From positions 1 through 39,617 of IMG/VR virus record IMGVR_UViG_2703718858_000001: a stretch of 39,617 nt of DNA; one strand, written 5' to 3'. The first letter of the stretch is position 1. Each line of letters starts with the position of its first letter. The position numbers and the translations under genes were made by a program. The notes beneath the pieces are model-generated. The model was not told where the DNA came from, did no database searches, and saw only the letters and a program-made list of their open reading frames with translations. The DNA is from a virus (Duplodnaviria > Heunggongvirae > Uroviricota > Caudoviricetes). Positions 3,176 through 35,908 of the stretch are shown in pieces.

Positions 3176-5338
3176 TTAAGCGCTGAAACCGCCGACTCTA
3201 ACTTTTAGCGTAGAGAGATCAACATTAACAGTTATGTTTAATACACCACTCCCCGCTGAAATAGAGAATAAGCGCCGTCCGCCTGACGTTCCGCCCCCCG
3301 CCGGTGGAGTGGTATCGAGTTCACCTGTGATCGATATTGAAATGGTACCCTCACGGTTAGCAACGAGTAGCTCTAAACATTCAGCCCAGGTGTTTTGTGC
3401 AGAAGACCAAGCATCGATAAGGATTCTCTGCGTCGTTCTGTTTGGTATTGCGATGGATTTGACTTCACCTGTATTTACCAGACCTTGAAAACGAGTTCCG
3501 TAATCTATCCAGCTAATGCTATAACCTGCATTTGCTGCAGGGTCTTGAGAGGTATACCAGGTCTTGGTTCTCACGCCAGTATGACCGATTGTCAGTAGAG
3601 GACGAGCAAATTGATCTCGATGAATGTATGCATTATCTCTGATCCCGTTGCTCTGCAGATCAATATCTGCAGCACGTGGATTAGGGAAAGTCGCTTTTCC
3701 ACCAACATCAAAAACATCATAATGATTTGCAACTGCAGGAATCCATCCGTTCCTGTCCAGATTTCTAAAGAAATCCTCGAAAGCCAGCCAGTATGATTGC
3801 TGATGACCTAAAAGGTTAGGGTGAACAGTCTGTATTTCAGGGGTCCGGTCAAATAATGCCGTTTCACCATATTTAGCAACAGCATCAAACCAGTATTTTT
3901 CCACATCGATAAGCACGCAACCCATTTCTACAGCGATTTTCCTGATCGCATCGTTTCCTCGAAGGAAGCGGACACCTGCTTGAATATTTACCCCATTCCA
4001 CTCAAACGTGACATTTGAGTTTGCGGCAGATGGTATAATGTTATTATCAGAGACTGGGGCCGGAGAAGATGAAGGCCATATTTGAGAAATTCCAGCCGGC
4101 ATGCTCCAGCTATATTCAGAAATATTCGGATGAGGTGTGGTTGTTAGCACAACATCCCCGCCGGCCTCCCTGACTAAATTAATAGCATTTCGAAGGCGCT
4201 GTTTAAATCCGTTTTCATTGAATGTTTGCCCGGCATTATATTGTGCGGTAGGAAAATCATTCATTCCATATATAAACAAAGCAATATCAGGATATATTCC
4301 TTCAGCAACAACTTCAGGCCATTGGTTAACAATAAAATTATTTATCGTTGAACCATTAACAGATTTGTTTGTGAAGTTAATGGGATAAATACGCTGCTTA
4401 TTTAGCGTATCGTTCATATACTCAAAAAATTTAGCAACTGGTGCCTGTGTTGCTGGATCAGGAAGCGTAGCACCAACCCCAACAGAAGAACCAAACCCAT
4501 AGAGTCGAAATAAGTTCTGATAGCCAGAAACCCCATGCCGATAAGCTGTTAATTTATTGACGAAATTTGGGAAAAGGGCCTGTGATGATCCAGACGCAGC
4601 ACGAATAGAAGCCTCTACCGTTCTTCCTGTTTCCGTAGCAACTAAGCCAGCACCGTCTTTTGATGCTAGCTTGATTGCCAAATCTGCCGTTTCAGTTTGC
4701 CCTGCAATCGGAACAGGATCCCCCTGGTCATTGAATCCAATCAGCATATTTGCTCTGGCTCGTACAGATGCCATGATTCCTACCTGACTTTCCGGAACTC
4801 GCAAAGTTCGCTGGAAAAGACCATCTGCATGATGAGTGCTGTCATTGTCTCCCGAGTCCACATAAGATTTTGTTGCTGCATCCTGTGCCTGTGACGGGTC
4901 ACGCAGATTACGAATGCGGTTGTTGAGTGCGTCGTAATAGTTCGCGATGAACGACGGCTTACGCAGCGCCAGGCGGAGAAAGCTGAAGCACTGCTGGATA
5001 AGCATGGTCAGCTTGTCGAACGCATCCTCATGTACCTCTGCGAAAAATTTCCCCTGGTTACGCAGATCAGTCTCCTGGGTAACAGGCAAGTCACGTGAGA
5101 TAGAGATTTGCCATCCGTTGGCCAGAGGTGACATCAACACAATGCTCCCACCTGAATAGCTTCCCGCCCCGGTAACGGAGTAATCGGTATCCAGAGTAAG
5201 TACCGTAATATTTTCGTTAAGGTCAGCAACCTGTACTGTCAGATCTGACTTCTTGAAAATACGAAACTTGTACGGGAAAGATGTGGTAACGCCGTTACCA
5301 GTGTATTCGTTGTGGTCAACTTCGGTTGAGACCGTCAT
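3176..5338 (-). CDS. Tailspike/tail fibre with T7 gp17-like N-terminal adaptor domain and SGNH-hydrolase-like central region
   Basis: N-terminus MTVSTEVDHNEYTGNGVTTSFPY...LDTDY resembles podovirus fibre attachment domain; GFGSS, GMND and HPN motifs resemble SGNH blocks I, III, V; GGAGA SD. Confidence 0.75.
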   Translation of the reverse strand: MTVSTEVDHNEYTGNGVTTSFPYKFRIFKKSDLTVQVADLNENITVLTLDTDYSVTGAGSYSGGSIVLMSPLANGWQISISRDLPVTQETDLRNQGKFFAEVHEDAFDKLTMLIQQCFSFLRLALRKPSFIANYYDALNNRIRNLRDPSQAQDAATKSYVDSGDNDSTHHADGLFQRTLRVPESQVGIMASVRARANMLIGFNDQGDPVPIAGQTETADLAIKLASKDGAGLVATETGRTVEASIRAASGSSQALFPNFVNKLTAYRHGVSGYQNLFRLYGFGSSVGVGATLPDPATQAPVAKFFEYMNDTLNKQRIYPINFTNKSVNGSTINNFIVNQWPEVVAEGIYPDIALFIYGMNDFPTAQYNAGQTFNENGFKQRLRNAINLVREAGGDVVLTTTPHPNISEYSWSMPAGISQIWPSSSPAPVSDNNIIPSAANSNVTFEWNGVNIQAGVRFLRGNDAIRKIAVEMGCVLIDVEKYWFDAVAKYGETALFDRTPEIQTVHPNLLGHQQSYWLAFEDFFRNLDRNGWIPAVANHYDVFDVGGKATFPNPRAADIDLQSNGIRDNAYIHRDQFARPLLTIGHTGVRTKTWYTSQDPAANAGYSISWIDYGTRFQGLVNTGEVKSIAIPNRTTQRILIDAWSSAQNTWAECLELLVANREGTISISITGELDTTPPAGGGTSGGRRLFSISAGSGVLNITVNVDLSTLKVRVGGFSA

Positions 5339-5441: not shown

Positions 5442-5458
5442 ATTACCTTTATGGTAAT
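5442..5458. promoter_or_regulatory. 17-bp palindromic operator ATTACC-TTTAT-GGTAAT
   Basis: Perfect inverted repeat; same motif recurs at OL, OR and other promoters in the window. Confidence 0.6.
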
Positions 5459-5512: not shown

Positions 5513-5533
5513 TTATTGCATGGAGAAGATAAG

Positions 5534-5791
5534 ATGCAGCGGTATCACTATCCACTGGAAGACGGATTTACCGAAAGGATTCACACGCCGGGAGGCGTCA
5601 GGTCACTGGTGGAGGGATCGCACTTGATGAAATTACTCCGGGATCTCGATAAGGATGGATTTAATGTCGATGGCCCACTTGCCGAACTGACTGCACTGAT
5701 TAACTACGTCACCAGCTCACAGATGTCTATGCAGGATCTGCAAACACATCTCGACTATTGTGCCGAACAATTACGAAAACAAACCCGGTAA
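5534..5791 (+). CDS. Small antirepressor-domain protein (paralog of Bro-N antirepressor C-terminus), putatively SOS-regulated
   Basis: ATG 5534 with GGAGAAG SD; 85 aa; aligns with C-terminal ~70 aa of 6940-7650 protein (IH.P.GV..L.E.S.LM.LL..L..DG..V.G..AELT...Y......D.QTH..Y). Confidence 0.6.
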   Translation: MQRYHYPLEDGFTERIHTPGGVRSLVEGSHLMKLLRDLDKDGFNVDGPLAELTALINYVTSSQMSMQDLQTHLDYCAEQLRKQTR

Positions 5792-5797
5792 ATTTAA

Positions 5798-5822
5798 AGG
5801 CCGCAAGAGCGGCCTATCGTTT
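5798..5822. terminator. Hairpin terminator between convergent genes
   Basis: AGGCCGC-AAGA-GCGGCCT stem-loop followed by T-rich tract. Confidence 0.5.
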
Positions 5823-6542
5823 CGCTTTGTGCTCATCCCAGCACGTTTTGCACCATGCCATTAAGCCGTCCGCATTTTGATTATTAGGGTAAAAGCTGGT
5901 TCGTTTTCTGCGGACATTACAAATTGGGCACCACTTCATATGGCGTGTATTCTTTGGGCCATCGAGACACCTTGCACACCACTTAGTCAATCCATCTGGA
6001 TTTTTTGACGATTTCCTGAATTTTTCATATGGAAGGTTTATTCTGCATCGCAAGCACTGCTTGCTACCACTTGAAACTCTGTTAGCTGATTCTTCTTTTG
6101 GCGGCGATACAGAAGGTATTCTTGCTGGCTCTGATACTGCCTGAGGTGCTTTTTTAGATGACTGAGACGATATGTCATCACCAGGGAATCTTCCATGATA
6201 TGCCGGACGCGTTGACACTCCAGGTGGAAGCTCAGCTGTAAACGGCTTTGGCTGAATCAGTTGCCTCTCTTTTGCTAACTCCTGCTGTTTATAATATGTC
6301 TGGATTACCGCACTATCATAAGCAGGAGGTGCGGAAATATCAGGCGCATTACCTCCAGTTTTTTGAAACTGAGTAGAGGTGTGTTCTATCACCTGTGTAC
6401 GATTAATCGTTATCTCCCCATCTTCGGTCTTTATCGTTTTGTTATGATTAACGACCGTACGATCAGAGATCTTAGTCTTGTTCTGGTTGATAACGTAAAT
6501 AATCACCGCAACCACACCAACAACTATCCAGAAAACTTCCAT
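5814..6542 (-). CDS. Membrane-anchored protein with C-terminal tandem zinc-ribbon (CxxC...WCxxC x2)
   Basis: N-terminal TM helix, Pro/Ser-rich linker, two repeats of a DGL-x2-WC-x2-C motif; GAGGAA SD; operator 6562-6578 just upstream. Confidence 0.65.
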   Translation of the reverse strand: MEVFWIVVGVVAVIIYVINQNKTKISDRTVVNHNKTIKTEDGEITINRTQVIEHTSTQFQKTGGNAPDISAPPAYDSAVIQTYYKQQELAKERQLIQPKPFTAELPPGVSTRPAYHGRFPGDDISSQSSKKAPQAVSEPARIPSVSPPKEESANRVSSGSKQCLRCRINLPYEKFRKSSKNPDGLTKWCARCLDGPKNTRHMKWCPICNVRRKRTSFYPNNQNADGLMAWCKTCWDEHKAKR

Positions 6543-6561
6543 TGCTTTTCCTCACAATAAC

Positions 6562-6578
6562 ATTACCTTAAAGGTAAT
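6562..6578. promoter_or_regulatory. Operator ATTACC-TTAAA-GGTAAT
   Basis: Perfect palindrome in divergent promoter region between 5814-6542 and ant. Confidence 0.6.
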
Positions 6579-6654
6579 ATCTTGCTTTCAGGTGATCAAG
6601 CGTTAAACGTAATCAACCAAATGCGGTTGATTTTAATATTTATCCGCGCTTATC

Positions 6655-6671
6655 ATTACCTTTGCGGTAAA
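6655..6671. promoter_or_regulatory. Operator ATTACC-TTTGC-GGTAAA
   Basis: One mismatch from the palindrome; second site of divergent region. Confidence 0.5.
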
Positions 6672-6689
6672 TTTACATCGCACTCCTCT

Positions 6690-6783
6690 TGTGCCATAGT
6701 AATCGGGCACTGGCAAAATCCAGTGCCGGGATTGGCGTCCCGGGTTACTAAGTGGCGCATACCACGCCAGACGTGGTTTTTTT
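6690..6783 (+). ncRNA. Candidate small RNA / structured leader (three stem-loops ending in intrinsic terminator)
   Basis: Consecutive hairpins plus ACCACG-CCAGA-CGTGGT followed by T7 at 6761-6783; contains CTAAGTGG identical to ant SD region and complementary to leader octamer 6849-6856. Confidence 0.3.
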
Positions 6784-6939
6784 ATGCGTTAAGCACAGCT
6801 ATATCCGAATTATGGTGGGCTGGGCAGGGGTCCGAAAGGACACCGGTACCACTTAGGCCGGCACGCCAACCTTGTCCAGTTCACCACCAGTAATTGGCGT
6901 TGCGGTGGTGATTAAAATCACTAAGTGGAGATAACCACC

Positions 6940-7650
6940 ATGGCTAATGCTCAAACTGCCATCTTCAAATTTGAATCTGTTAACCCTATCCGTTCCATCA
7001 TTATCGATGGCCAACCATGGTTTGTAGCCCAAGACGTTTGTAGTGCGCTGCGTATCCAAAACGTCACCCAAGCACTTGAAAAACTGGATGATGATGAAAG
7101 GTCTATGTTCAACATAGGGCATGAACATCGTGCAATTTTTGACAGCCGAGTAAAAGAGATCAACATCATCTCCGAGTCAGGCCTCTACACACTGATCCTC
7201 CGCTGCCGCGACGCAGTGACACCAGGCACTATCCCCTACCGCTTTCGTAAATGGGTTACAGGTGAGGTTCTTCCTCAGATCCGCCGCACCGGAAGTTACA
7301 TTAAAAACTCGCTCCCGCAGGAAGAACGCATAAAGATGGTTGCCGACCAGGTTGCAAACGCCACAGCATCAGCAGTGATGCAGGCGATGAAGATAGAGAA
7401 CAAAACCTACAGTGCCCCGCTGAAGCCCGGCTACCGCAGCCTGATTCATTCGCCGTCTGGTGTTCTCGGCCTGACGGAGAACTCACTGCTGATGAATTTG
7501 CTGAACCAGTTACAGGAAGACGGGCATGACGTATCGGGCGCAGCGGCGGAACTGACCACCATGTTCTGCTACATCGTCGGTGTGAGCAAATGCCTGCGTG
7601 ATATCCAGACGCACGCGGAGTACATCAACGACAAAGCAGGGTTCTTCTGA
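6940..7650 (+). CDS. Antirepressor, Bro-N domain protein with C-terminal domain shared with 5534-5791
   Basis: N-terminus FKFESVNPIRSIIIDGQPWFVAQDV...GLYTLILRCRD...FRKWVTGEVLPQIRRTGSY matches Bro-N pattern; ATG 6940 preferred over GTG 6925. Confidence 0.75.
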   Translation: MANAQTAIFKFESVNPIRSIIIDGQPWFVAQDVCSALRIQNVTQALEKLDDDERSMFNIGHEHRAIFDSRVKEINIISESGLYTLILRCRDAVTPGTIPYRFRKWVTGEVLPQIRRTGSYIKNSLPQEERIKMVADQVANATASAVMQAMKIENKTYSAPLKPGYRSLIHSPSGVLGLTENSLLMNLLNQLQEDGHDVSGAAAELTTMFCYIVGVSKCLRDIQTHAEYINDKAGFF

Positions 7651-7767: not shown

Positions 7768-7800
7768 ATGAGAAAATTTGACGAGTACGAAGGCGTTTAA
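7768..7800 (+). CDS. 10-codon leader ORF (MRKFDEYEGV)
   Basis: Very strong SD CAGGAGGAG 5 nt upstream; stop 19 nt before terminator hairpin; attenuator-like arrangement. Confidence 0.3.
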   Translation: MRKFDEYEGV

Positions 7801-7859: not shown

Positions 7860-8399
7860 GTGTTAAGTGAAGAAATGCAATTTGCCATGGCCGTGGCTCA
7901 AATAGTAAGTGCAGTCGCGGTTTCGCTTGGCTTGTTCATAGCTATCGCTACTATTATTTATAATGTAAATACAGCGAGAAAAGTACACACTTCAGTATTC
8001 CTTGGTGAAAGCAGGTTTGATGTAGATTATAAGAAAGGCCTATCTACTATGCGCCGCATTCACGAATCGAACAAATCATTCCGCTCTTATATGTATCCAA
8101 GCAATGGGCAGGCTGATCTTACGGATGAAGAAAAGACAGAGAAGAGAGAAATAATTTACTGTCTAGGTTTCTACGAACGCATGGCTGTGAGCGTGAAGCG
8201 GAAAACTTATGATGAGACCATGATTAAGGAAGTATTTTACAGCTCCGTTGTAAATAACTATCAGATTGCGCTACCTCTTATACAAGCCATTAGAGAAAAA
8301 GAAAACATAAACACATATTTTAAAGAATATGAATGGTTGGCCACACGATGGAAGGATTGTCCATTGAAGGATAAATCCCCGTGGTACAAGTTTTGGTAA
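7860..8399 (+). CDS. Low-GC cargo protein, N-terminal TM anchor plus ~150-aa cytoplasmic domain; function unknown (exclusion/defence candidate)
   Basis: Sampled GC 28-47% versus about 50% in flanks; GTG 7860 with GGAG SD (alternative ATG 7875); hydrophobic N-terminus. Confidence 0.6.
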   Translation: MLSEEMQFAMAVAQIVSAVAVSLGLFIAIATIIYNVNTARKVHTSVFLGESRFDVDYKKGLSTMRRIHESNKSFRSYMYPSNGQADLTDEEKTEKREIIYCLGFYERMAVSVKRKTYDETMIKEVFYSSVVNNYQIALPLIQAIREKENINTYFKEYEWLATRWKDCPLKDKSPWYKFW

Positions 8400-8686: not shown

Positions 8687-8983
8687 TCACGTCCCTTTTC
8701 TGAATGATAGCCATTCGAAAAATGATGACATTCCACCGCAGACAATAGCAAAGATTATCCCACCAAAGAATAGAAGGCCAGCCTGCCACCACTCCCACCG
8801 CCATACATCCACAGCGCCAACCATACCAACAATCGCTCCAACAAATGGAATATAGCTCACGATGAAAGCAATGGGGGCTGCAATTATCCAGTGCAATCCC
8901 CACCATGATTCAAGCCCAGCCATAATTGCTGCCAACTGAAAAAGACCAACGACGATATAAACAATGAATCCTATAGCTTGCAT
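8687..8983 (-). CDS. Small integral membrane protein (3 TM)
   Basis: AGGTGA SD 5 nt upstream of ATG; highly hydrophobic, Trp-rich. Confidence 0.6.
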   Translation of the reverse strand: MQAIGFIVYIVVGLFQLAAIMAGLESWWGLHWIIAAPIAFIVSYIPFVGAIVGMVGAVDVWRWEWWQAGLLFFGGIIFAIVCGGMSSFFEWLSFRKGT

Positions 8984-8995
8984 GTAGTCACCTAT

Positions 8996-9169
8996 TTACC
9001 CAATAAAAATAAGAGGCCTCCCCTCAATAAGGCTTGCAACAAGAACTACTCCCTGCACAACAAAGATGAACCAGCAAATAGCTTGAGTCTGAGGGTTAAG
9101 AAAATATTTGTAGCGGTCAATAAATAACAATCCACCAGAAATTATCACACTCAAAATAATTAAAAACAC
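8996..9169 (-). CDS. Small hydrophobic membrane peptide (57 aa), GTG start
   Basis: Not in ORF track; AAGGAAG SD directly after stop of 9179-11653; open frame to TAA at 8996-8998. Confidence 0.3.
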   Translation of the reverse strand: MFLIILSVIISGGLLFIDRYKYFLNPQTQAICWFIFVVQGVVLVASLIEGRPLIFIG

Positions 9170-25151: not shown

Positions 25152-25240
25152 ATCAATGACTCCGTACGCAATTAAATTATTACCAATTTAACCACATATG
25201 ATTTATTTATCGTAGATAGTTGACATTTAACGCACAAATT

Positions 25241-25257
25241 ATTACCTTTCAGGTAAC
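25241..25257. promoter_or_regulatory. Operator ATTACC-TTTCA-GGTAAC upstream of head operon
   Basis: Same palindrome family; TTGACA hexamer at 25220-25225 nearby. Confidence 0.5.
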
Positions 25258-25578: not shown

Positions 25579-25655
25579 GTGGCATTAGCTCAGTTGGACA
25601 GAGCAACCGCCTTCTAAGCGGTTGGTCGCAGGTTCGAATCCTGCATGCCACGCCA
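25579..25655 (+). tRNA. tRNA-Arg (anticodon UCU), phage-encoded
   Basis: Perfect 7-bp acceptor stem GTGGCAT/ATGCCAC, U8, D-arm GCTC..GAGC with GG, anticodon stem ACCGC/GCGGT, loop CTTCTAA, T-arm GCAGG-TTCGAAT-CCTGC, discriminator G and CCA. Confidence 0.9.
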
Positions 25656-31494: not shown

Positions 31495-31511
31495 ATTACC
31501 TAGCAGGTAAT
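31495..31511. promoter_or_regulatory. Operator ATTACC-TAGCA-GGTAAT
   Basis: Perfect palindrome just downstream of terminator after P-like gene. Confidence 0.55.
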
Positions 31512-33897: not shown

Positions 33898-34482
33898 ATG
33901 AAAAGTATCCAGGACGTCCGCAGGCAAAATCTCAACGACTTGATCGACCGTGAATTCAATGGTGTTCAGACGCGGATGGCAGAAAAACTTGGAACTCAGG
34001 CAAATCTGGTAAACCGCTGGGCTCTTGGCAAGAAGGTTATCGGCGACCAGGTTGCGCGAAAAATTGAAGCTGCCGCCAATAAACCCCGTAACTGGCTTGA
34101 TATCGATCGCTCGCTTTCTCAGGAAGGTTTTCAGCCTGTCGGCCCAAGCGACATTGGTCAGCTGGCGGCTCACAACCTGGAACGCTGGATGAGCGAAAGC
34201 CGCGACCTTTCAACACAGGGAAAACTTCACCGCGCATCCGGCGTCGCCCAGGTGACAATCAGCCGCCTGTTAAACAATGAGGTCAGCGTTTCCATTTCCA
34301 CCCTGGAGAATGTTGCATCCGCATTCGGGCGTCACGGATATGAACTACTGATTCACCCGCACGACCCTGCGACTATCAACTATGACCGCTCGCGCTACGC
34401 ATTGTTACCCGAAACCGAGAAAGCAAAGATCGAAAGTTACATTGAATTTGTCATCAACCAGAACGAAAAAAACAAACAATAA
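33898..34482 (+). CDS. Immunity repressor, tandem HTH, no S24 autocleavage domain
   Basis: Two HTH-like segments; no Ser-Lys peptidase motifs; flanked by operator clusters and followed by terminator. Confidence 0.7.
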   Translation: MKSIQDVRRQNLNDLIDREFNGVQTRMAEKLGTQANLVNRWALGKKVIGDQVARKIEAAANKPRNWLDIDRSLSQEGFQPVGPSDIGQLAAHNLERWMSESRDLSTQGKLHRASGVAQVTISRLLNNEVSVSISTLENVASAFGRHGYELLIHPHDPATINYDRSRYALLPETEKAKIESYIEFVINQNEKNKQ

Positions 34483-34503: not shown

Positions 34504-34527
34504 AGCCGCCTTCTGGCGGCTTTTTTA
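34504..34527 (+). terminator. Rho-independent terminator after repressor
   Basis: AGCCGCC-TTCT-GGCGGCT followed by TTTTTT. Confidence 0.75.
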
Positions 34528-34538
34528 TTGCCTGTTCG

Positions 34539-34617
34539 ATTACCTAATGGGTAATTTTTTTAACTCATATCTATTGACATCAAACCAGATACGCATAATT
34601 ATTACCTCAACGGTAAC
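34539..34617 (+). promoter_or_regulatory. OL/PL region: operators 34539-34555 and 34601-34617 flanking -35 TTGACA (34574-34579)
   Basis: ATTACC-TAATG-GGTAAT and ATTACC-TCAAC-GGTAAC; second site overlaps the -10 region. Confidence 0.6.
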
Positions 34618-34635
34618 AGACCGAGGTAACAAGTT

Positions 34636-34788
34636 ATGCAGTGGAAAATCATCAACGGTTGGTACTGCGTTACTGCATGCGGATTCATGAGCTGGAAGTT
34701 CCGCACCTTACAGGAAGGCATTAAGTGGGCTTTCGTCAGCAAAGAAGCTCGCGATGTGGCCAACGATAACGAGATATGGGAGGGCTGA
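34636..34788 (+). CDS. Small Trp/Cys-rich protein (50 aa), first gene of leftward operon
   Basis: Not in ORF track; GAGGT SD 8 nt upstream; stop overlaps SD of next gene. Confidence 0.4.
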   Translation: MQWKIINGWYCVTACGFMSWKFRTLQEGIKWAFVSKEARDVANDNEIWEG

Positions 34789-34790
34789 TA

Positions 34791-35090
34791 ATGAACGTTA
34801 ATCAGCAGAAAAATCTTCAAAAAATCATGCTGGCATTCGACAAGGACTACCGCCTGTCAGAACAGCTATATGACCGACAAGTTGAACTGATTGAGAGTAT
34901 CCGGCTTCATCAACTGGCCTCAACTTTCGACGTTGTAACAGGCAAAGGCGTTCGCCAGGAAGTGCTGGAGGCTGCTAAAGACAGCCCTGAGTTCGAAGAA
35001 CTGATGGATGCCTATCGGCGAGAGGCAATGGCAATTATCGCCCGCTGGGATCTGGCGGATCAGCTTGATGGACAGAGGGACGCGGCATGA
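34791..35090 (+). CDS. Hypothetical early protein
   Basis: ATG 34791 with GGGAGGG SD; ATGA-coupled to exonuclease. Confidence 0.5.
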   Translation: MNVNQQKNLQKIMLAFDKDYRLSEQLYDRQVELIESIRLHQLASTFDVVTGKGVRQEVLEAAKDSPEFEELMDAYRREAMAIIARWDLADQLDGQRDAA

Positions 35091-35908
35091 AACCGGGAAT
35101 TTATTTCGACATCAGCAACGAAGACTACCACGCCGGTGACGGCGTGAGTAAGTCGCAACTGGACATGGTTGCCAAGAATCCGGCGCTTCTTAAATGGGTC
35201 CAGGCAGCACCAGAAGACGAAGAGAAAAAGTCTGCACTGGATATTGGAACCGCATTGCACTGTCTGCTTCTGGAGCCTGGAGAATTCGACAAACGCTTCA
35301 TTGTTTCACCGAAGTTCGATCGTCGGACGAAACAAGGTAAAGCTGACGAAGAAGCATTTCTTCGTGATGTAGCGGATATGGGGATTACGGTACTTGATGC
35401 CGAGCAGTGGCGGAAACTGGAGCTGATGCGTGATAGCGCAATGGCTCACCCGGCGGCACGCTGGGTGCTGGAAGCACCTGGTTACTGCGAAGCATCAATG
35501 TACTGGAATGATGAAGAGACTGGTGAGTTGTGCCGCATTCGTCCAGACAAATGGCTGAACGAGCACAACGTGATCGTCGACGTGAAAAAGGTTGCAGATA
35601 TGGACCGTTTTGCACGCCACATCGAGGAATTCCGCTACCACGTGCAGGACGCAATGTACCGCGAAGGTGCAATGAGGGTTACTGGTCAGCCGCATGGTTT
35701 TTTCTTTCTTGCCGTGAGCGAAAGCATTGATTGTGGTCGGTATCCGGTACGCGTGTTCGAGCTGGATGCGCCGGATGTCGATGCCGGGCACGCTCTGTTC
35801 CGCCGGGATCTGAATACCTATCACGAATGCCGCATCAACGATGAGTGGGGCGGAGTGGAAATTATTAAACGCCCTGACTGGGCACGTAAACAGGATATAT
35901 ACGTATGA
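35087..35908 (+). CDS. PD-(D/E)XK exonuclease (RecE/exodeoxyribonuclease VIII-like)
   Basis: MKPGIYFDISNEDYHAG N-terminus, RPD...IVDVKK motif; coupled to RecT. Confidence 0.75.
   Translation: MKPGIYFDISNEDYHAGDGVSKSQLDMVAKNPALLKWVQAAPEDEEKKSALDIGTALHCLLLEPGEFDKRFIVSPKFDRRTKQGKADEEAFLRDVADMGITVLDAEQWRKLELMRDSAMAHPAARWVLEAPGYCEASMYWNDEETGELCRIRPDKWLNEHNVIVDVKKVADMDRFARHIEEFRYHVQDAMYREGAMRVTGQPHGFFFLAVSESIDCGRYPVRVFELDAPDVDAGHALFRRDLNTYHECRINDEWGGVEIIKRPDWARKQDIYV

What the first reader, a model, noticed from the sequence alone, without database searches (positions are those of the whole stretch)
5814..6542. Membrane-anchored tandem zinc-ribbon protein in the cargo island
The product has an N-terminal TM helix, a Pro/Ser/Thr-rich linker and two C-terminal repeats (CLRC...DGLTKWCARC and CPIC...DGLMAWCKTC). 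It is transcribed divergently from the antirepressor out of an operator-containing region and is not part of the structural or lysis modules. I cannot assign it to a known family; the architecture suits a membrane sensor or superinfection-exclusion factor.
Basis: seen in the sequence. Interest (0 to 1): 0.5.

Follow-up and report, generated by a model that had tools for sequence, protein, structure and literature searches.

The report
Membrane-tethered zinc-finger protein in phage immunity regions
A real, conserved but uncharacterised prophage accessory gene encodes a protein anchored in the inner membrane with two DNA-binding-type zinc fingers in the cytoplasm; it sits in the immunity control region of many temperate phages, so it is a candidate factor for excluding or defending against other phages, but its function is untested.

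Summary
ORF 5814..6542(-) encodes 242 aa with an N-terminal TM helix, a conserved beta-hairpin, a disordered Pro/Ser/Ala linker and two Cys4 zinc fingers.

- **Host element:** an epsilon15/phiV10-like (Uetakevirus) E. coli prophage. The gene is a self-contained 856-bp cassette (5792-6647) that phiV10 and phiv142-3 lack.
- **Family:** PHROG 6762, unknown function. It has at least 43 clusters at 50% identity across Gammaproteobacteria. All 35 alleles examined are intact, with pN/pS 0.15-0.5.
- **Zinc fingers:** the Stc1/HNH-associated treble-clef type, strongly basic (+14), with no catalytic residues. This suggests nucleic-acid binding.
- **Topology:** Nout-Cin with only 2 residues outside, so it cannot sense the periplasm.
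- **Regulation:** the promoter (TTGATC-N17-TACCTT) is overlapped by a perfect copy of the phage's 17-bp repressor operator. The same geometry is conserved in four other enterobacterial lineages. I therefore predict the gene is off in lysogens and on at infection or induction.
- **Distant relatives:** they lie 15-54 bp downstream of cI, or convergent with it.

My best guess (about 0.35) is that the protein acts on incoming DNA at the membrane, as exclusion or defence. Rivals are anchoring of the phage's own genome and lysis-lysogeny control. No experiment exists.

The parts
5792..6647 (-). Self-contained accessory cassette: terminator, gene, RBS, operator and promoter. It is absent from phiV10 and phiv142-3.
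   Evidence: blastn of phiV10 (L093) and phiv142-3 (L092) against the window: homology ends at 5791 and resumes at 6648.
5814..6542 (-). Coding sequence, 242 aa, member of PHROG 6762 (WP_000451758.1, 'hypothetical protein').
   Evidence: All 42 aligned relatives match phrog_6762.
6489..6536 (-). Residues 3-18: N-terminal transmembrane anchor (Nout-Cin).
   Evidence: Hydropathy. AF2 helix 3-20 at pLDDT about 90. Charge asymmetry across 42 members.
6378..6467 (-). Residues 26-55: conserved juxtamembrane beta-hairpin on the cytoplasmic side.
   Evidence: AF2 strands 26-39 and 42-55. Conserved T39, G42 and E43. Only 4 of the 40 positions 21-60 vary among alleles.
6069..6377 (-). Residues 56-158: variable Pro/Ser/Ala-rich linker, mostly predicted disordered.
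   Evidence: pLDDT below 50 over much of 57-154, with a lower-confidence helix at 77-93. Length and sequence vary among homologues. 28 of 98 positions vary among alleles.
5943..6068 (-). Residues 159-200: zinc finger 1 (C163, C166, C189, C192), treble-clef, Stc1/HNH-associated type.
   Evidence: Pfam Stc1 scores 21 bits, below the 24.8 cut-off.
5817..5942 (-). Residues 201-242: zinc finger 2 (C205, C208, C231, C234). Basic, with the conserved RRKRTS stretch.
5798..5815 (-). Intrinsic terminator hairpin overlapping the stop codon. It lies between the gene and the convergent ORF 5516..5791.
   Evidence: 7-pair stem, 6 G-C pairs; sequence.
6549..6553 (-). Shine-Dalgarno GAGGA, 6 nt upstream of the ATG.
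6562..6578 (.). Perfect 17-bp palindromic repressor operator ATTACCTTTAAGGTAAT, covering the -10 and the predicted start site of the gene's promoter.
   Evidence: About 12 such sites occur in the window against 0.15 expected, including sites flanking the repressor gene. The operator is identical in 49 of 50 E. coli-type copies; one has a single G-to-A change.
6571..6599 (-). Predicted sigma-70 promoter: TTGATC (6599-6594), 17-nt spacer, TACCTT (6576-6571).
   Evidence: Read. The same -35/17/-10/operator geometry appears in Serratia, Providencia, loci L065-L070 (L064 differs slightly) and at window site 25241. It falls below the scan threshold, so it is an inference.

Best explanation
**What it is (well supported).** This is a genuine accessory (moron) gene of an epsilon15/phiV10-like prophage integrated at the guaA/yfgI locus of E. 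coli.
- The product is a single-pass inner-membrane protein with only Met-Glu outside, so the whole functional mass is cytoplasmic.
- From the membrane inward it has a juxtamembrane beta-hairpin, a roughly 100-residue flexible linker, and a rigid pair of Cys4 treble-clef zinc fingers.
- The zinc fingers are the type found in arrays on phage and giant-virus HNH/EndoVII/GIY-YIG nucleases and helicases. Here they lack catalytic residues and are very basic (+14).

**How it is controlled (inferred from conserved sequence).** The cassette carries its own weak sigma-70 promoter.
- The -10 and start site of that promoter are covered by a perfect copy of the phage's dispersed 17-bp repressor operator. 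The neighbouring isrK-C4-ant operon is controlled by the same operator type.
- I therefore expect the gene to be shut off in the established lysogen and made in a burst on infection or induction.
- In more distant relatives the gene is instead the second gene of the cI operon, or lies tail-to-tail with cI.

**What it does (inference, not shown).** The tethered zinc-finger pair binds nucleic acid at the cytoplasmic face of the inner membrane. It acts on DNA that is entering the cell, blocking or trapping the genome of a competing phage.
- In this phage the timing would resemble the T4 Imm/Sp early exclusion proteins.
- In the cI-linked relatives it would resemble prophage Sie/Rex-type functions.
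For: **Gene reality and family**
- ORF, RBS and terminator.
- PHROG 6762 at 2.8e-150.
- 33 homologous clusters in Enterobacterales. At least 43 same-architecture clusters at 50% identity among the top 150 of 3220 profile hits.
- Purifying selection and intact alleles.

**Cassette**
- Clean 856-bp indel against phiV10 and phiv142-3.

**Topology**
- Charge asymmetry in 42 members.

**Zinc fingers**
- AF2 mean pLDDT 88.
- BFVD hits are HNH/EndoVII/'Stc1 domain' viral proteins, E down to 6e-7.
- The same module is fused to HNH, an SF1 helicase, and Bro-N+T5orf172.
- Net charge is +14, with conserved K/R residues.

**Operator regulon**
- About 12 sites in the window against 0.15 expected by chance.
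- Sites flank the HTH repressor gene 33898..34482.
- The promoter/operator geometry is conserved in Serratia, Providencia and loci L065-L070 and is invariant in E. coli-type copies.

**Immunity-region linkage**
- The gene lies 15-54 bp downstream of cI in Aeromonas phiARM81mr, L081-L087, L090/L095, L096 and L102. In L089/L100 a roughly 100-aa ORF separates them.
- It is convergent with cI in L091, L097 and L101.
- It lies next to Bro-N, KilA-N/ANT, Rha or ORF6N antirepressor-type genes in enterobacterial and Acinetobacter loci.
- In the L090/L095 lineage the operon continues into a signal-peptide SNase nuclease.

**From my own knowledge, not tested here**
- The slot downstream of cI classically holds prophage defence or exclusion genes (lambda rexAB, lactococcal sie2009, BTP1 bstA).
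- Zorya and Kiwa show that membrane-proximal targeting of entering DNA is a real defence strategy.
Against: - No experiment exists for any family member. Literature searches found nothing.
- There is no hit to any PADLOC defence model for 42 members, and no homology to known Sie/Imm/Rex proteins.
- The operator predicts no expression in the lysogen of this phage, which removes the classical rationale for a prophage exclusion gene.
- Nucleic-acid binding is inferred only from domain associations and charge.
- The promoter is weak and was below the threshold of the consensus scan.
- Genomic position alone cannot separate defence from lysis-lysogeny control.
Confidence: 0.35

Rival explanations
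1. The protein anchors the phage's own genome. As an early protein it would tether the incoming or replicating phage DNA to the inner membrane to organise replication, transcription or completion of genome entry, as phi29 p16.7 does (N-terminal TM, linker or coiled coil, C-terminal DNA-binding domain).
For: - The overall layout is the same: N-terminal anchor, spacer, C-terminal basic domain of nucleic-acid-binding type.
- Some family members replace the hairpin and linker with a coiled coil (P0089, P0091, P0137).
- Predicted early, repressor-controlled expression.
- The comparison with p16.7 comes from my own knowledge.
Against: - The gene is dispensable. Close relatives (phiV10, phiv142-3, HEMP4, ZX5) lack it and are viable phages.
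- It was found only in temperate phages and prophages, never in virulent phages, among 50,697 phage records.
- Co-transcription with cI in many lineages does not suit a lytic replication helper.
Confidence: 0.2
2. The protein is a lysis-lysogeny control factor. A membrane-tethered zinc-finger protein would sequester or modulate a regulator at the membrane. Candidates are the repressor, the antirepressor, or a host protease such as FtsH (lambda CIII-like). This would bias establishment of lysogeny or induction.
For: - The gene is constantly embedded in immunity regions, next to cI or next to antirepressor genes, in more than 10 independent lineages.
- It belongs to the same operator regulon as the isrK-C4-ant operon.
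- Lambda cIII is likewise an early, repressor-controlled, membrane-associated accessory gene (my own knowledge).
- Treble-clef fingers such as CsfB and the ClpX ZBD bind proteins.
Against: - There is no homology to any known regulator.
- The strongly basic tandem fingers are homologous to modules on nucleases and helicases, which points to nucleic acid.
- The gene is absent from close relatives that carry the same repressor/antirepressor circuit.
- The ZX5 study attributes the switch to the repressor and Ant alone (PMC9782041).
Confidence: 0.15
3. The protein is a host-takeover or counter-defence factor. An early protein would pin host DNA or a host DNA-processing or defence protein to the membrane. 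Examples would be division or nucleoid interference like P1 Icd or lambda Kil, or restriction alleviation.
For: - Predicted early expression.
- All 42 members hit phrog_5558, which is labelled 'Lar-like restriction alleviation protein', through its N-terminal zinc-finger module.
- In P1 the immI operon (c4-icd-ant) carries a division inhibitor (my own knowledge).
Against: - The PHROG hit covers only the shared zinc-finger module (profile positions 7-47 of 130).
- Pfam gives no Lar family match even at E up to 1.
- Constitutive co-expression with cI in many lineages would be costly for a takeover function.
- Membrane anchoring is unusual for known anti-restriction proteins.
Confidence: 0.1
4. 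One reading: the protein detects an envelope or periplasmic signal and transmits it inward.
For: A single TM helix plus a cytoplasmic zinc domain superficially recalls membrane-bound anti-sigma factors or ToxR-like sensors.
Against: - Only 2 residues precede the TM helix in 42 members, with no Lys/Arg, so there is no extracytoplasmic domain.
- Zinc-binding anti-sigma factors have the opposite order (zinc domain N-terminal to the TM helix) and an HxxxCxxC motif that is absent here.
Confidence: 0.03

Closest known systems
PHROG 6762 (phage protein family of unknown function)
   Same: Full-length match, residues 1-242 to profile positions 1-242, E = 2.8e-150. All 42 aligned relatives also match.
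   Different: Nothing differs: this protein is a member. The family has no assigned function, and PGAP calls it 'hypothetical protein'.
Stc1-type (Pfam PF12898) zinc-finger repeats attached to phage and giant-virus HNH / endonuclease VII / GIY-YIG nucleases and helicases
   Same: - The same CxxC-x(about 22)-CxxC treble-clef module with the F...DG.T.WC..C signature.
- Profile search finds 3220 representative proteins, many with 4-19 repeats.
- Those proteins pass the Pfam Stc1 cut-off and carry HNH, AAA_11/12, or Bro-N+T5orf172 domains.
- Fold matches to Hpy99I and PacI and to viral HNH proteins.
   Different: - There is no catalytic domain and no conserved His/Asn.
- There are exactly two modules, at the C-terminus.
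- The protein is tethered to the membrane.
- This protein's own Stc1 score (21 bits) is below the Pfam cut-off of 24.8.
Prophage exclusion and abortive-infection proteins encoded beside the immunity genes: lambda RexA/RexB, lactococcal Sie2009, P22 SieA, HK97 gp15, T4 Imm/Sp
   Same: - Small accessory membrane protein.
- Located in or next to the immunity region.
- In distant relatives it is the gene directly after cI, in the same operon, followed by a terminator.
- It is a moron-type cassette.
   Different: - There is no sequence or fold similarity, and none of those proteins has zinc fingers.
- In this phage an operator on the promoter predicts expression outside lysogeny. That matches the early timing of T4 Imm/Sp, not prophage Sie.
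- Function is untested.
- The properties of the named proteins are from my own knowledge and PMC10883804 (listed; abstract only).
Bacillus phage phi29 p16.7 (membrane-anchored DNA-binding early protein)
   Same: N-terminal TM anchor, spacer, C-terminal DNA-binding-type domain, and early expression. Some relatives have a coiled-coil spacer.
   Different: - The DNA-binding fold is different.
- phi29 is virulent, whereas this family is confined to temperate phages.
- The gene is dispensable and often cI-linked.
- The comparison is from my own knowledge.
P1/P7 immI and Salmonella Gifsy-1 IsrK antirepressor control regions (genomic neighbourhood, not the protein)
   Same: The neighbouring operon has isrK (67.7 bits) and C4 antisense RNA (60.9 bits) upstream of a Bro-N antirepressor. 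It is under a primary-repressor operator, as P1 immI is under C1.
   Different: The zinc-finger gene is a separate, divergently transcribed cassette inserted beside this operon. It is absent from relatives that keep the operon.

Membership tests
PHROG 6762 | Full-length match to the family profile | tested here: met
   E = 2.8e-150, residues 1-242 to profile 1-242 of 242. 42 of 42 relatives match.
Pfam Stc1 domain (PF12898) | Score at or above the gathering cut-off of 24.8 bits | tested here: not met
   21.0 bits, E = 5e-4. Multi-repeat proteins found with this protein's zinc-finger profile do pass, at 25-61 bits. The module is therefore related, but this protein is sub-threshold.
HNH / His-Me finger endonucleases | Catalytic His at the end of beta-1 and Asn/His on the helix; Pfam HNH match | tested here: not met
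   No Pfam HNH or Endonuclease_7 hit at E up to 1. No conserved His or Asn lies within the fingers; the conserved positions are F175, D183, G184, W188 and the basic residues. The resemblance to Hpy99I and PacI is in fold only.
Lar restriction-alleviation protein | Match to the Lar family itself, not only to a shared zinc finger | tested here: not met
   No Pfam Lar match at E up to 1. The phrog_5558 hit covers only profile positions 7-47 of 130.
Zinc-binding anti-sigma factors (ZAS) and membrane sensors | Cytoplasmic zinc domain N-terminal to the TM helix, HxxxCxxC motif, extracytoplasmic sensing domain | tested here: not met
   The TM helix is at residues 3-18 with 2 residues outside. The zinc fingers are C-terminal. 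There is no HxxxCxxC motif.
Known anti-phage defence systems (PADLOC-DB v2) | Match to any defence protein model | tested here: not met
   No families for the protein at E up to 0.1. Across 42 relatives there were only two stray single hits at E of about 0.004.
Moron (autonomous accessory cassette in a phage genome) | Present or absent between close relatives, with its own promoter and terminator | tested here: met
   Clean indel at 5792-6647 against phiV10 and phiv142-3. Terminator. Conserved promoter/operator. The promoter is predicted, not measured.
Prophage superinfection-exclusion (Sie) proteins | Inner-membrane location | tested here: inconclusive
   A TM helix and Nout-Cin topology are predicted from sequence only.
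Prophage superinfection-exclusion (Sie) proteins | Expressed from the repressed prophage | tested here: inconclusive
   In this window a perfect operator covers the promoter's -10 and start site, which predicts repression. Distant relatives are co-transcribed with cI. No expression data are available.
Prophage superinfection-exclusion (Sie) proteins | Blocks DNA entry or growth of superinfecting phages | not testable with these tools
   This requires plaque, DNA-entry and survival assays.

The most novel reading that the evidence does not exclude
A one-polypeptide, membrane-tethered DNA trap or sensor. The zinc-finger pair, on its long flexible leash, would capture foreign DNA as it emerges at the cytoplasmic face of the inner membrane. 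The TM helix and beta-hairpin would then oligomerise to block the entry channel or depolarise the membrane. That would be a minimal analogue of membrane-proximal systems such as Zorya, Kiwa or RexAB, carried in the immunity regions of temperate phages across Gammaproteobacteria. It would be wired either to cI or to the repressor's operator.
Probability: 0.15. Interest if true: 0.75.

Novelty: new variant of a known kind. Interest (0 to 1): 0.45.

Why it matters
- The gene is in about 2.4% of complete E. coli genomes. Its family spans Enterobacterales, Aeromonas, Acinetobacter, Pasteurellaceae and marine Gammaproteobacteria, and it is labelled 'hypothetical' in every record examined.
- Its fixed association with phage immunity regions, together with an unusual architecture (membrane anchor plus nuclease-type zinc fingers without a nuclease), makes it a well-defined and cheap-to-test candidate. 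It could be a new exclusion or defence mechanism, or a new player in lysis-lysogeny control.
- The conserved rewiring, from cI operon in some lineages to repressor operator in others, gives a natural experiment on when such a function must be expressed.

Tried and rejected
**Searches that found nothing useful**
- NCBIfam and PADLOC scans of the protein and five neighbours gave nothing relevant.
- Sequence searches of the PDB with the zinc-finger region and with the family profile gave no significant hit.
- Foldseek of the full-length model against the PDB gave nothing below E = 1. The disordered linker spoils the query, so I re-modelled the zinc fingers alone.
- tblastn against 72,556 plasmids found no match, so the gene is not on plasmid prophages.
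- Literature searches by accession number and by architecture/superinfection-exclusion keywords found no paper on this family. The Stc1/HNH keyword search returned only general HNH zinc-ribbon background.
- The epsilon15 genome paper (PMC2698709), which might describe the operators, is not held.

**Readings I corrected or rejected**
- I first read the TL-2011b copy as a pseudogene, because tblastn started at residue 19 and the record annotates only a misc_feature. This was wrong. The ORF is intact (242 aa), and the missing N-terminus was low-complexity masking.
- I considered that C4/IsrK RNA might also pair with the gene's mRNA. This was prompted by repeats I4/I7 and D3/D14. I rejected it as probably chance: the matches are GTT/GGT Val-Gly codon runs and the two AAG-TGG-TG (Lys-Trp-Cys) codon strings.
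- I considered repressor activation of the promoter in the lambda PRM manner. I rejected it because an operator centred at -42 would put the start site inside the coding region.
- I looked for a conserved partner gene downstream and found none. The downstream ORFs differ between lineages. One lineage has a signal-peptide SNase nuclease there.
Full report
**The observation**

I re-derived its features.
- Residues 3-18 (VFWIVVGVVAVIIYVI) form the only strongly hydrophobic segment.
- Residues 61-158 are Pro/Ser/Ala-rich.
- The eight cysteines form two CxxC-x22-CxxC units: C163/166/189/192 and C205/208/231/234. Both carry the quoted DGLTKWC/DGLMAWC signatures.
- The C-terminal 84 residues have a net charge of +14.
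- A GAGGA Shine-Dalgarno precedes the ATG.
- A G+C-rich hairpin followed by a T-run overlaps the stop codon.

AlphaFold2 with a 28-sequence alignment gave these elements:
- a confident helix at 3-20;
- pLDDT below 50 over much of 57-154;
- two confident zinc-finger units with pLDDT above 90.

**Where the window comes from**

The window is an epsilon15/phiV10-like podovirus prophage (genus Uetakevirus).
- The region matches phages HEMP4, phiv142-3, TL-2011b and phiV10 at 90-95% identity.
- It is 100% identical over the gene to E. coli BE311. There the prophage abuts yfgI/yfgH, and PGAP calls the product WP_000451758.1 'hypothetical protein'.
- Integration at the guaA 3' end is described for the relative ZX5 (PMC9782041).
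- The gene is in 129 of 5426 complete E. coli genomes, always chromosomal, and in no PLSDB plasmid.

**Is it a real gene?**

- Fifty E. coli-type copies from IMG/VR comprise 35 alleles, all intact.
- pN/pS against the window allele is 0.15-0.5.
- Amino-acid variation sits mostly in the linker: 28 of 98 positions. The TM helix has 4 of 20, the hairpin region 4 of 40 and the zinc fingers 5 of 84.
- Homologues at 37-64% identity occur in Superficieibacter, Enterobacter, Citrobacter, Salmonella, Serratia, Providencia, Pectobacterium and Buttiauxella. Yersinia phages YeP4-6 and Aeromonas phage phiARM81mr also carry it.
- The alignment shows three conserved blocks (TM helix, hairpin, zinc fingers) and a linker that varies in length and sequence.

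**Family**

- The protein matches PHROG 6762 (unknown function) end to end.
- A profile of the zinc-finger region, searched against 1.84 billion representative proteins, found 3220 hits at E up to 1e-3. They fall into two groups.
  - Group one has at least 43 clusters at 50% identity with the same architecture: a Met-Glu/Asp start, TM helix, hairpin or coiled coil, linker and a C-terminal tandem finger, 150-240 aa in total.
  - Group two comprises soluble proteins with 4-19 copies of the module.
- All 42 members of a broad alignment hit PHROG 6762, and none hits a PADLOC defence model meaningfully.
- A GTDB scan added Acinetobacter, Marinobacterium, Oceanobacter, Aggregatibacter, Haemophilus, Pseudoalteromonas, Neptunomonas and Neisseria.

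**The zinc fingers**

- Pfam gives only a sub-threshold Stc1 hit for this protein (21 bits against a cut-off of 24.8).
- The multi-repeat relatives pass the Stc1 threshold. They carry HNH nuclease, SF1 helicase (AAA_11/12), or Bro-N plus T5orf172 domains.
- A model of residues 156-242 alone had mean pLDDT 88.
- Foldseek against viral models gave 41 hits at E up to 1e-3. The named ones are mostly HNH endonuclease, endonuclease VII, 'Stc1 domain' or 'Zn-finger protein'.
- No His or Asn is conserved inside the fingers, and there is no Pfam HNH hit.

My reading is that this is a non-catalytic binding module of the kind that accompanies DNA enzymes. Nucleic-acid binding is therefore likely but not shown. 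Protein or lipid binding is not excluded.

**Topology**

In 42 family members the segment before the TM helix averages 2.1 residues, with no Lys or Arg and usually one acidic residue. The 15 residues after it carry 3.8 Lys/Arg on average. By the positive-inside rule the protein is Nout-Cin, which also suits zinc-thiolate sites. Nothing projects into the periplasm, so the 'membrane sensor' idea fails.

**Regulation**

A 17-bp palindrome, ATTACC-N5-GGTAAT, occurs at about 12 sites in the window, against 0.15 expected by chance.
- Sites flank the HTH repressor gene 33898..34482. That repressor has an HTH_3 domain and no S24 peptidase domain.
- Sites precede early-looking transcription units at varying positions. 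One lies between a TTGATA -35 and a TAAAAT -10 at 31495. One abuts the -10 at 34601. One lies next to the -35 of the promoter that starts isrK at 6707.

The gene's own upstream region reads TTGATC (6599-6594), a 17-nt spacer, then TACCTT (6576-6571). A perfect palindrome at 6562-6578 covers the -10 and the predicted start site.

The same -35/17/-10/operator geometry recurs in diverged surrounding sequence in other lineages:
- Serratia: TTGAAC-17-TACCTT, operator GTTACCTTAATGGTGAT;
- Providencia: TTGAAT-17-TAACCT, with that phage's variant operator ATTAACC-N5-GGTTAAT;
- the roughly 62%-identical loci L065-L070: TTGACC-17-TACCTT, operator ATTACCTTATGGGTAAT, preceded by a terminator; L064 carries a shorter TTACC-N5-GGTAA palindrome without a clear TTGACC -35;
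- window site 25241: TTGACA-17-TACCTT.

The operator is identical in 49 of the 50 E. coli-type copies; one has a single G-to-A change.

This conservation is my evidence that the gene belongs to the repressor regulon. That it is repressed in lysogens and expressed on infection or induction is an inference. The promoter is weak and did not pass the generic consensus scan.

**Cassette structure**

In phiV10 and phiv142-3, homology to the window stops at 5791 and resumes at 6648. Position 5791 is the stop of the epsilon15 gp19-like ORF. The 856 bp in between hold exactly the terminator, gene, RBS, operator and promoter. This is a textbook moron, except that it brings a repressor operator with it. 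TL-2011b carries an intact copy that is annotated only as a misc_feature.

**Genomic context of relatives**

- In Serratia the gene is divergent from a KilA-N/ANT antirepressor. In Providencia it lies between the tailspike and internal-protein genes. In Buttiauxella it is in a small element with a CI-type repressor and serine recombinases.
- In other enterobacterial loci it follows Bro-N, Rha or ORF6N genes.
- In the distant lineages it sits 15-54 bp downstream of a cI-type repressor (HTH_3, usually with Peptidase_S24) on the same strand. These lineages are Aeromonas phiARM81mr, L081-L087, L090/L095 (Marinobacterium), L096 (Acinetobacter) and L102 (Neptunomonas).
  - In Aeromonas phiARM81mr the gene has a strong SD and is followed by a terminator and a PL-like promoter.
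  - In L089/L100 a roughly 100-aa ORF lies between cI and the gene.
- It is tail-to-tail with cI in L091, L097 and L101.
- In L090/L095 the operon continues into an SNase+Excalibur nuclease with a signal peptide.

The one constant is residence in the immunity region of a temperate phage.

**Interpretation**

Shown or strongly supported:
- a real accessory gene under purifying selection;
- a membrane-anchored cytoplasmic protein with two nuclease-type, non-catalytic zinc fingers;
- membership of the repressor operator regulon in this phage;
- linkage to cI or ant throughout the family.

Inferred mechanism (confidence about 0.35): the tethered basic fingers bind nucleic acid at the inner face of the membrane and interfere with DNA entering the cell, which amounts to exclusion or defence against competing phages.
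- In its favour: the slot downstream of cI classically carries such genes (lambda rexAB, lactococcal sie2009, BTP1 bstA; my own knowledge). The gene is dispensable and confined to temperate phages. The architecture places a DNA-binding-type module exactly where phage DNA arrives.
- Against it: in this phage the operator predicts no expression in the lysogen, so the timing would have to resemble the early T4 Imm/Sp proteins. There is no similarity to any known defence or exclusion protein. The ligand is unknown.

Rivals:
- a phi29 p16.7-like anchor for the phage's own DNA (0.2). It fits the layout and the early timing but not the dispensability or the cI linkage;
- a lysis-lysogeny modulator acting at the membrane (0.15). 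It fits the neighbourhood but has no mechanistic support;
- host takeover or counter-defence (0.1);
- the extracytoplasmic sensor idea, which is essentially excluded (0.03).

**Novelty and verdict**

The family is catalogued but uncharacterised, and I found no publication on it. If it is an exclusion or defence factor, it is a new variant of a known kind of prophage function, built from parts not previously seen in that role. It is a solid, testable lead of moderate interest (0.45), not an established surprise.

Noticed in passing
window 6707-6783 (+) and 6808-6891 (+), upstream of ant at 6940..7650: Rfam finds an isrK Hfq-binding sRNA (67.7 bits) and a C4 antisense RNA (60.9 bits) in tandem in the leader of the Bro-N antirepressor gene. 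A TTTACA-17-CATAGT promoter (6672-6700) abuts operator 6655-6671 and would start transcription at about 6707. This is a P1 immI / Gifsy-1 IsrK-type RNA control layer in a Uetakevirus. The C4 segment 6858-6869 is complementary to 6732-6743 (in isrK) and to 6894-6905 (just upstream of the ant RBS).
   Followed up: partly
window 5442, 6562, 6655, 7715, 25241, 28368/28386, 31433, 31495, 33442, 33827, 34539, 34601 (each 17 bp): A dispersed regulon of ATTACC-N5-GGTAAT palindromes: about 12 sites against 0.15 expected. The sites sit on promoters in different registers and flank the repressor gene 33898..34482. This resembles the scattered C1 operators of P1. The repressor has an HTH_3 domain but no S24 peptidase domain, which would suit antirepressor-driven induction.
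   Followed up: partly
window 5516..5791 (+) (PGAP start gives 85 aa), operator at 5442-5458: The small epsilon15 gp19-like ORF next to the tailspike gene is 43% identical over 72 residues to the C-terminal domain of the Bro-N antirepressor (E = 2e-15). It has its own operator. It looks like a free-standing copy of the Ant C-terminal domain, and it is conserved next to the tailspike in phiV10, phiv142-3 and the Providencia prophage L009; 82-83-aa ORFs at the same position in the Serratia loci L005/L006/L008 were not compared.
   Followed up: partly
window 6925/6940..7650 (+): PGAP annotates the Bro-N antirepressor as 'frameshifted' in strain BE311, which is identical to the window over the zinc-finger gene. 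In the window it reads as an open 237-241-aa frame. It is longer than the phiV10 version (194 aa) and the phiv142-3 version (218 aa).
   Followed up: no
window 6611-6632: An inverted repeat AATCAACC-N6-GGTTGATT lies between the two divergent promoters and overlaps the TTGATT -35 hexamer at 6627. The scan flagged it as terminator-like. It could be a second regulator site. In the related loci L064-L070 a different palindrome, TGTGAC(A/G)TGTCACA, occupies the equivalent position just upstream of the -35.
   Followed up: no
window 25579-25655 (+), operator and TTGACA promoter at about 25220-25257: A tRNA-Arg (anticodon TCT) lies inside the prophage, about 320 bp downstream of a consensus -35 element plus operator.
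   Followed up: no
window 3176..5338 (-): The tailspike has the epsilon15-type N-terminus, and PGAP calls it an SGNH/GDSL hydrolase. It is probably an O-antigen or capsule deacetylating esterase spike rather than a glycanase.
   Followed up: no
window 7860..8399 (+), 8687..8983 (-), 8996..9169 (-): Three more small predicted membrane proteins fill the gap between ant and the internal-protein genes. One is a DUF4760 protein preceded by operator 7715, with a possible unannotated small ORF beginning near 7783. The region is a mosaic accessory island: TL-2011b carries a YafO toxin there instead.
   Followed up: no
L001 3947..4675 (Escherichia phage TL-2011b, NC_019445.1 about 34513-35241): The RefSeq record annotates this region only as a misc_feature, 'similar to hypothetical protein', but it holds an intact 242-aa ORF that is 97% identical to the window protein. 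This is a missed CDS.
   Followed up: yes
L090 6654-7307 and L095 4657-5310 (Marinobacterium-type prophage): Directly after the cI-plus-zinc-finger gene pair comes a staphylococcal-nuclease homologue with an Excalibur domain and a signal peptide (...HQAYA/ETM). This is a secreted or periplasmic nuclease in a repressor operon.
   Followed up: partly
proteins P0046, P0040, P0038 (soluble), P0165, P0104: Proteins made almost entirely of the same zinc-finger module exist: the overlapping motif count reaches 19 and HMMER resolves up to 10 stretches. There are also fusions with Bro-N+T5orf172 (P0165) and with an SF1 helicase (P0104). This is a large, poorly described repeat family in phages and bacteria.
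   Followed up: partly
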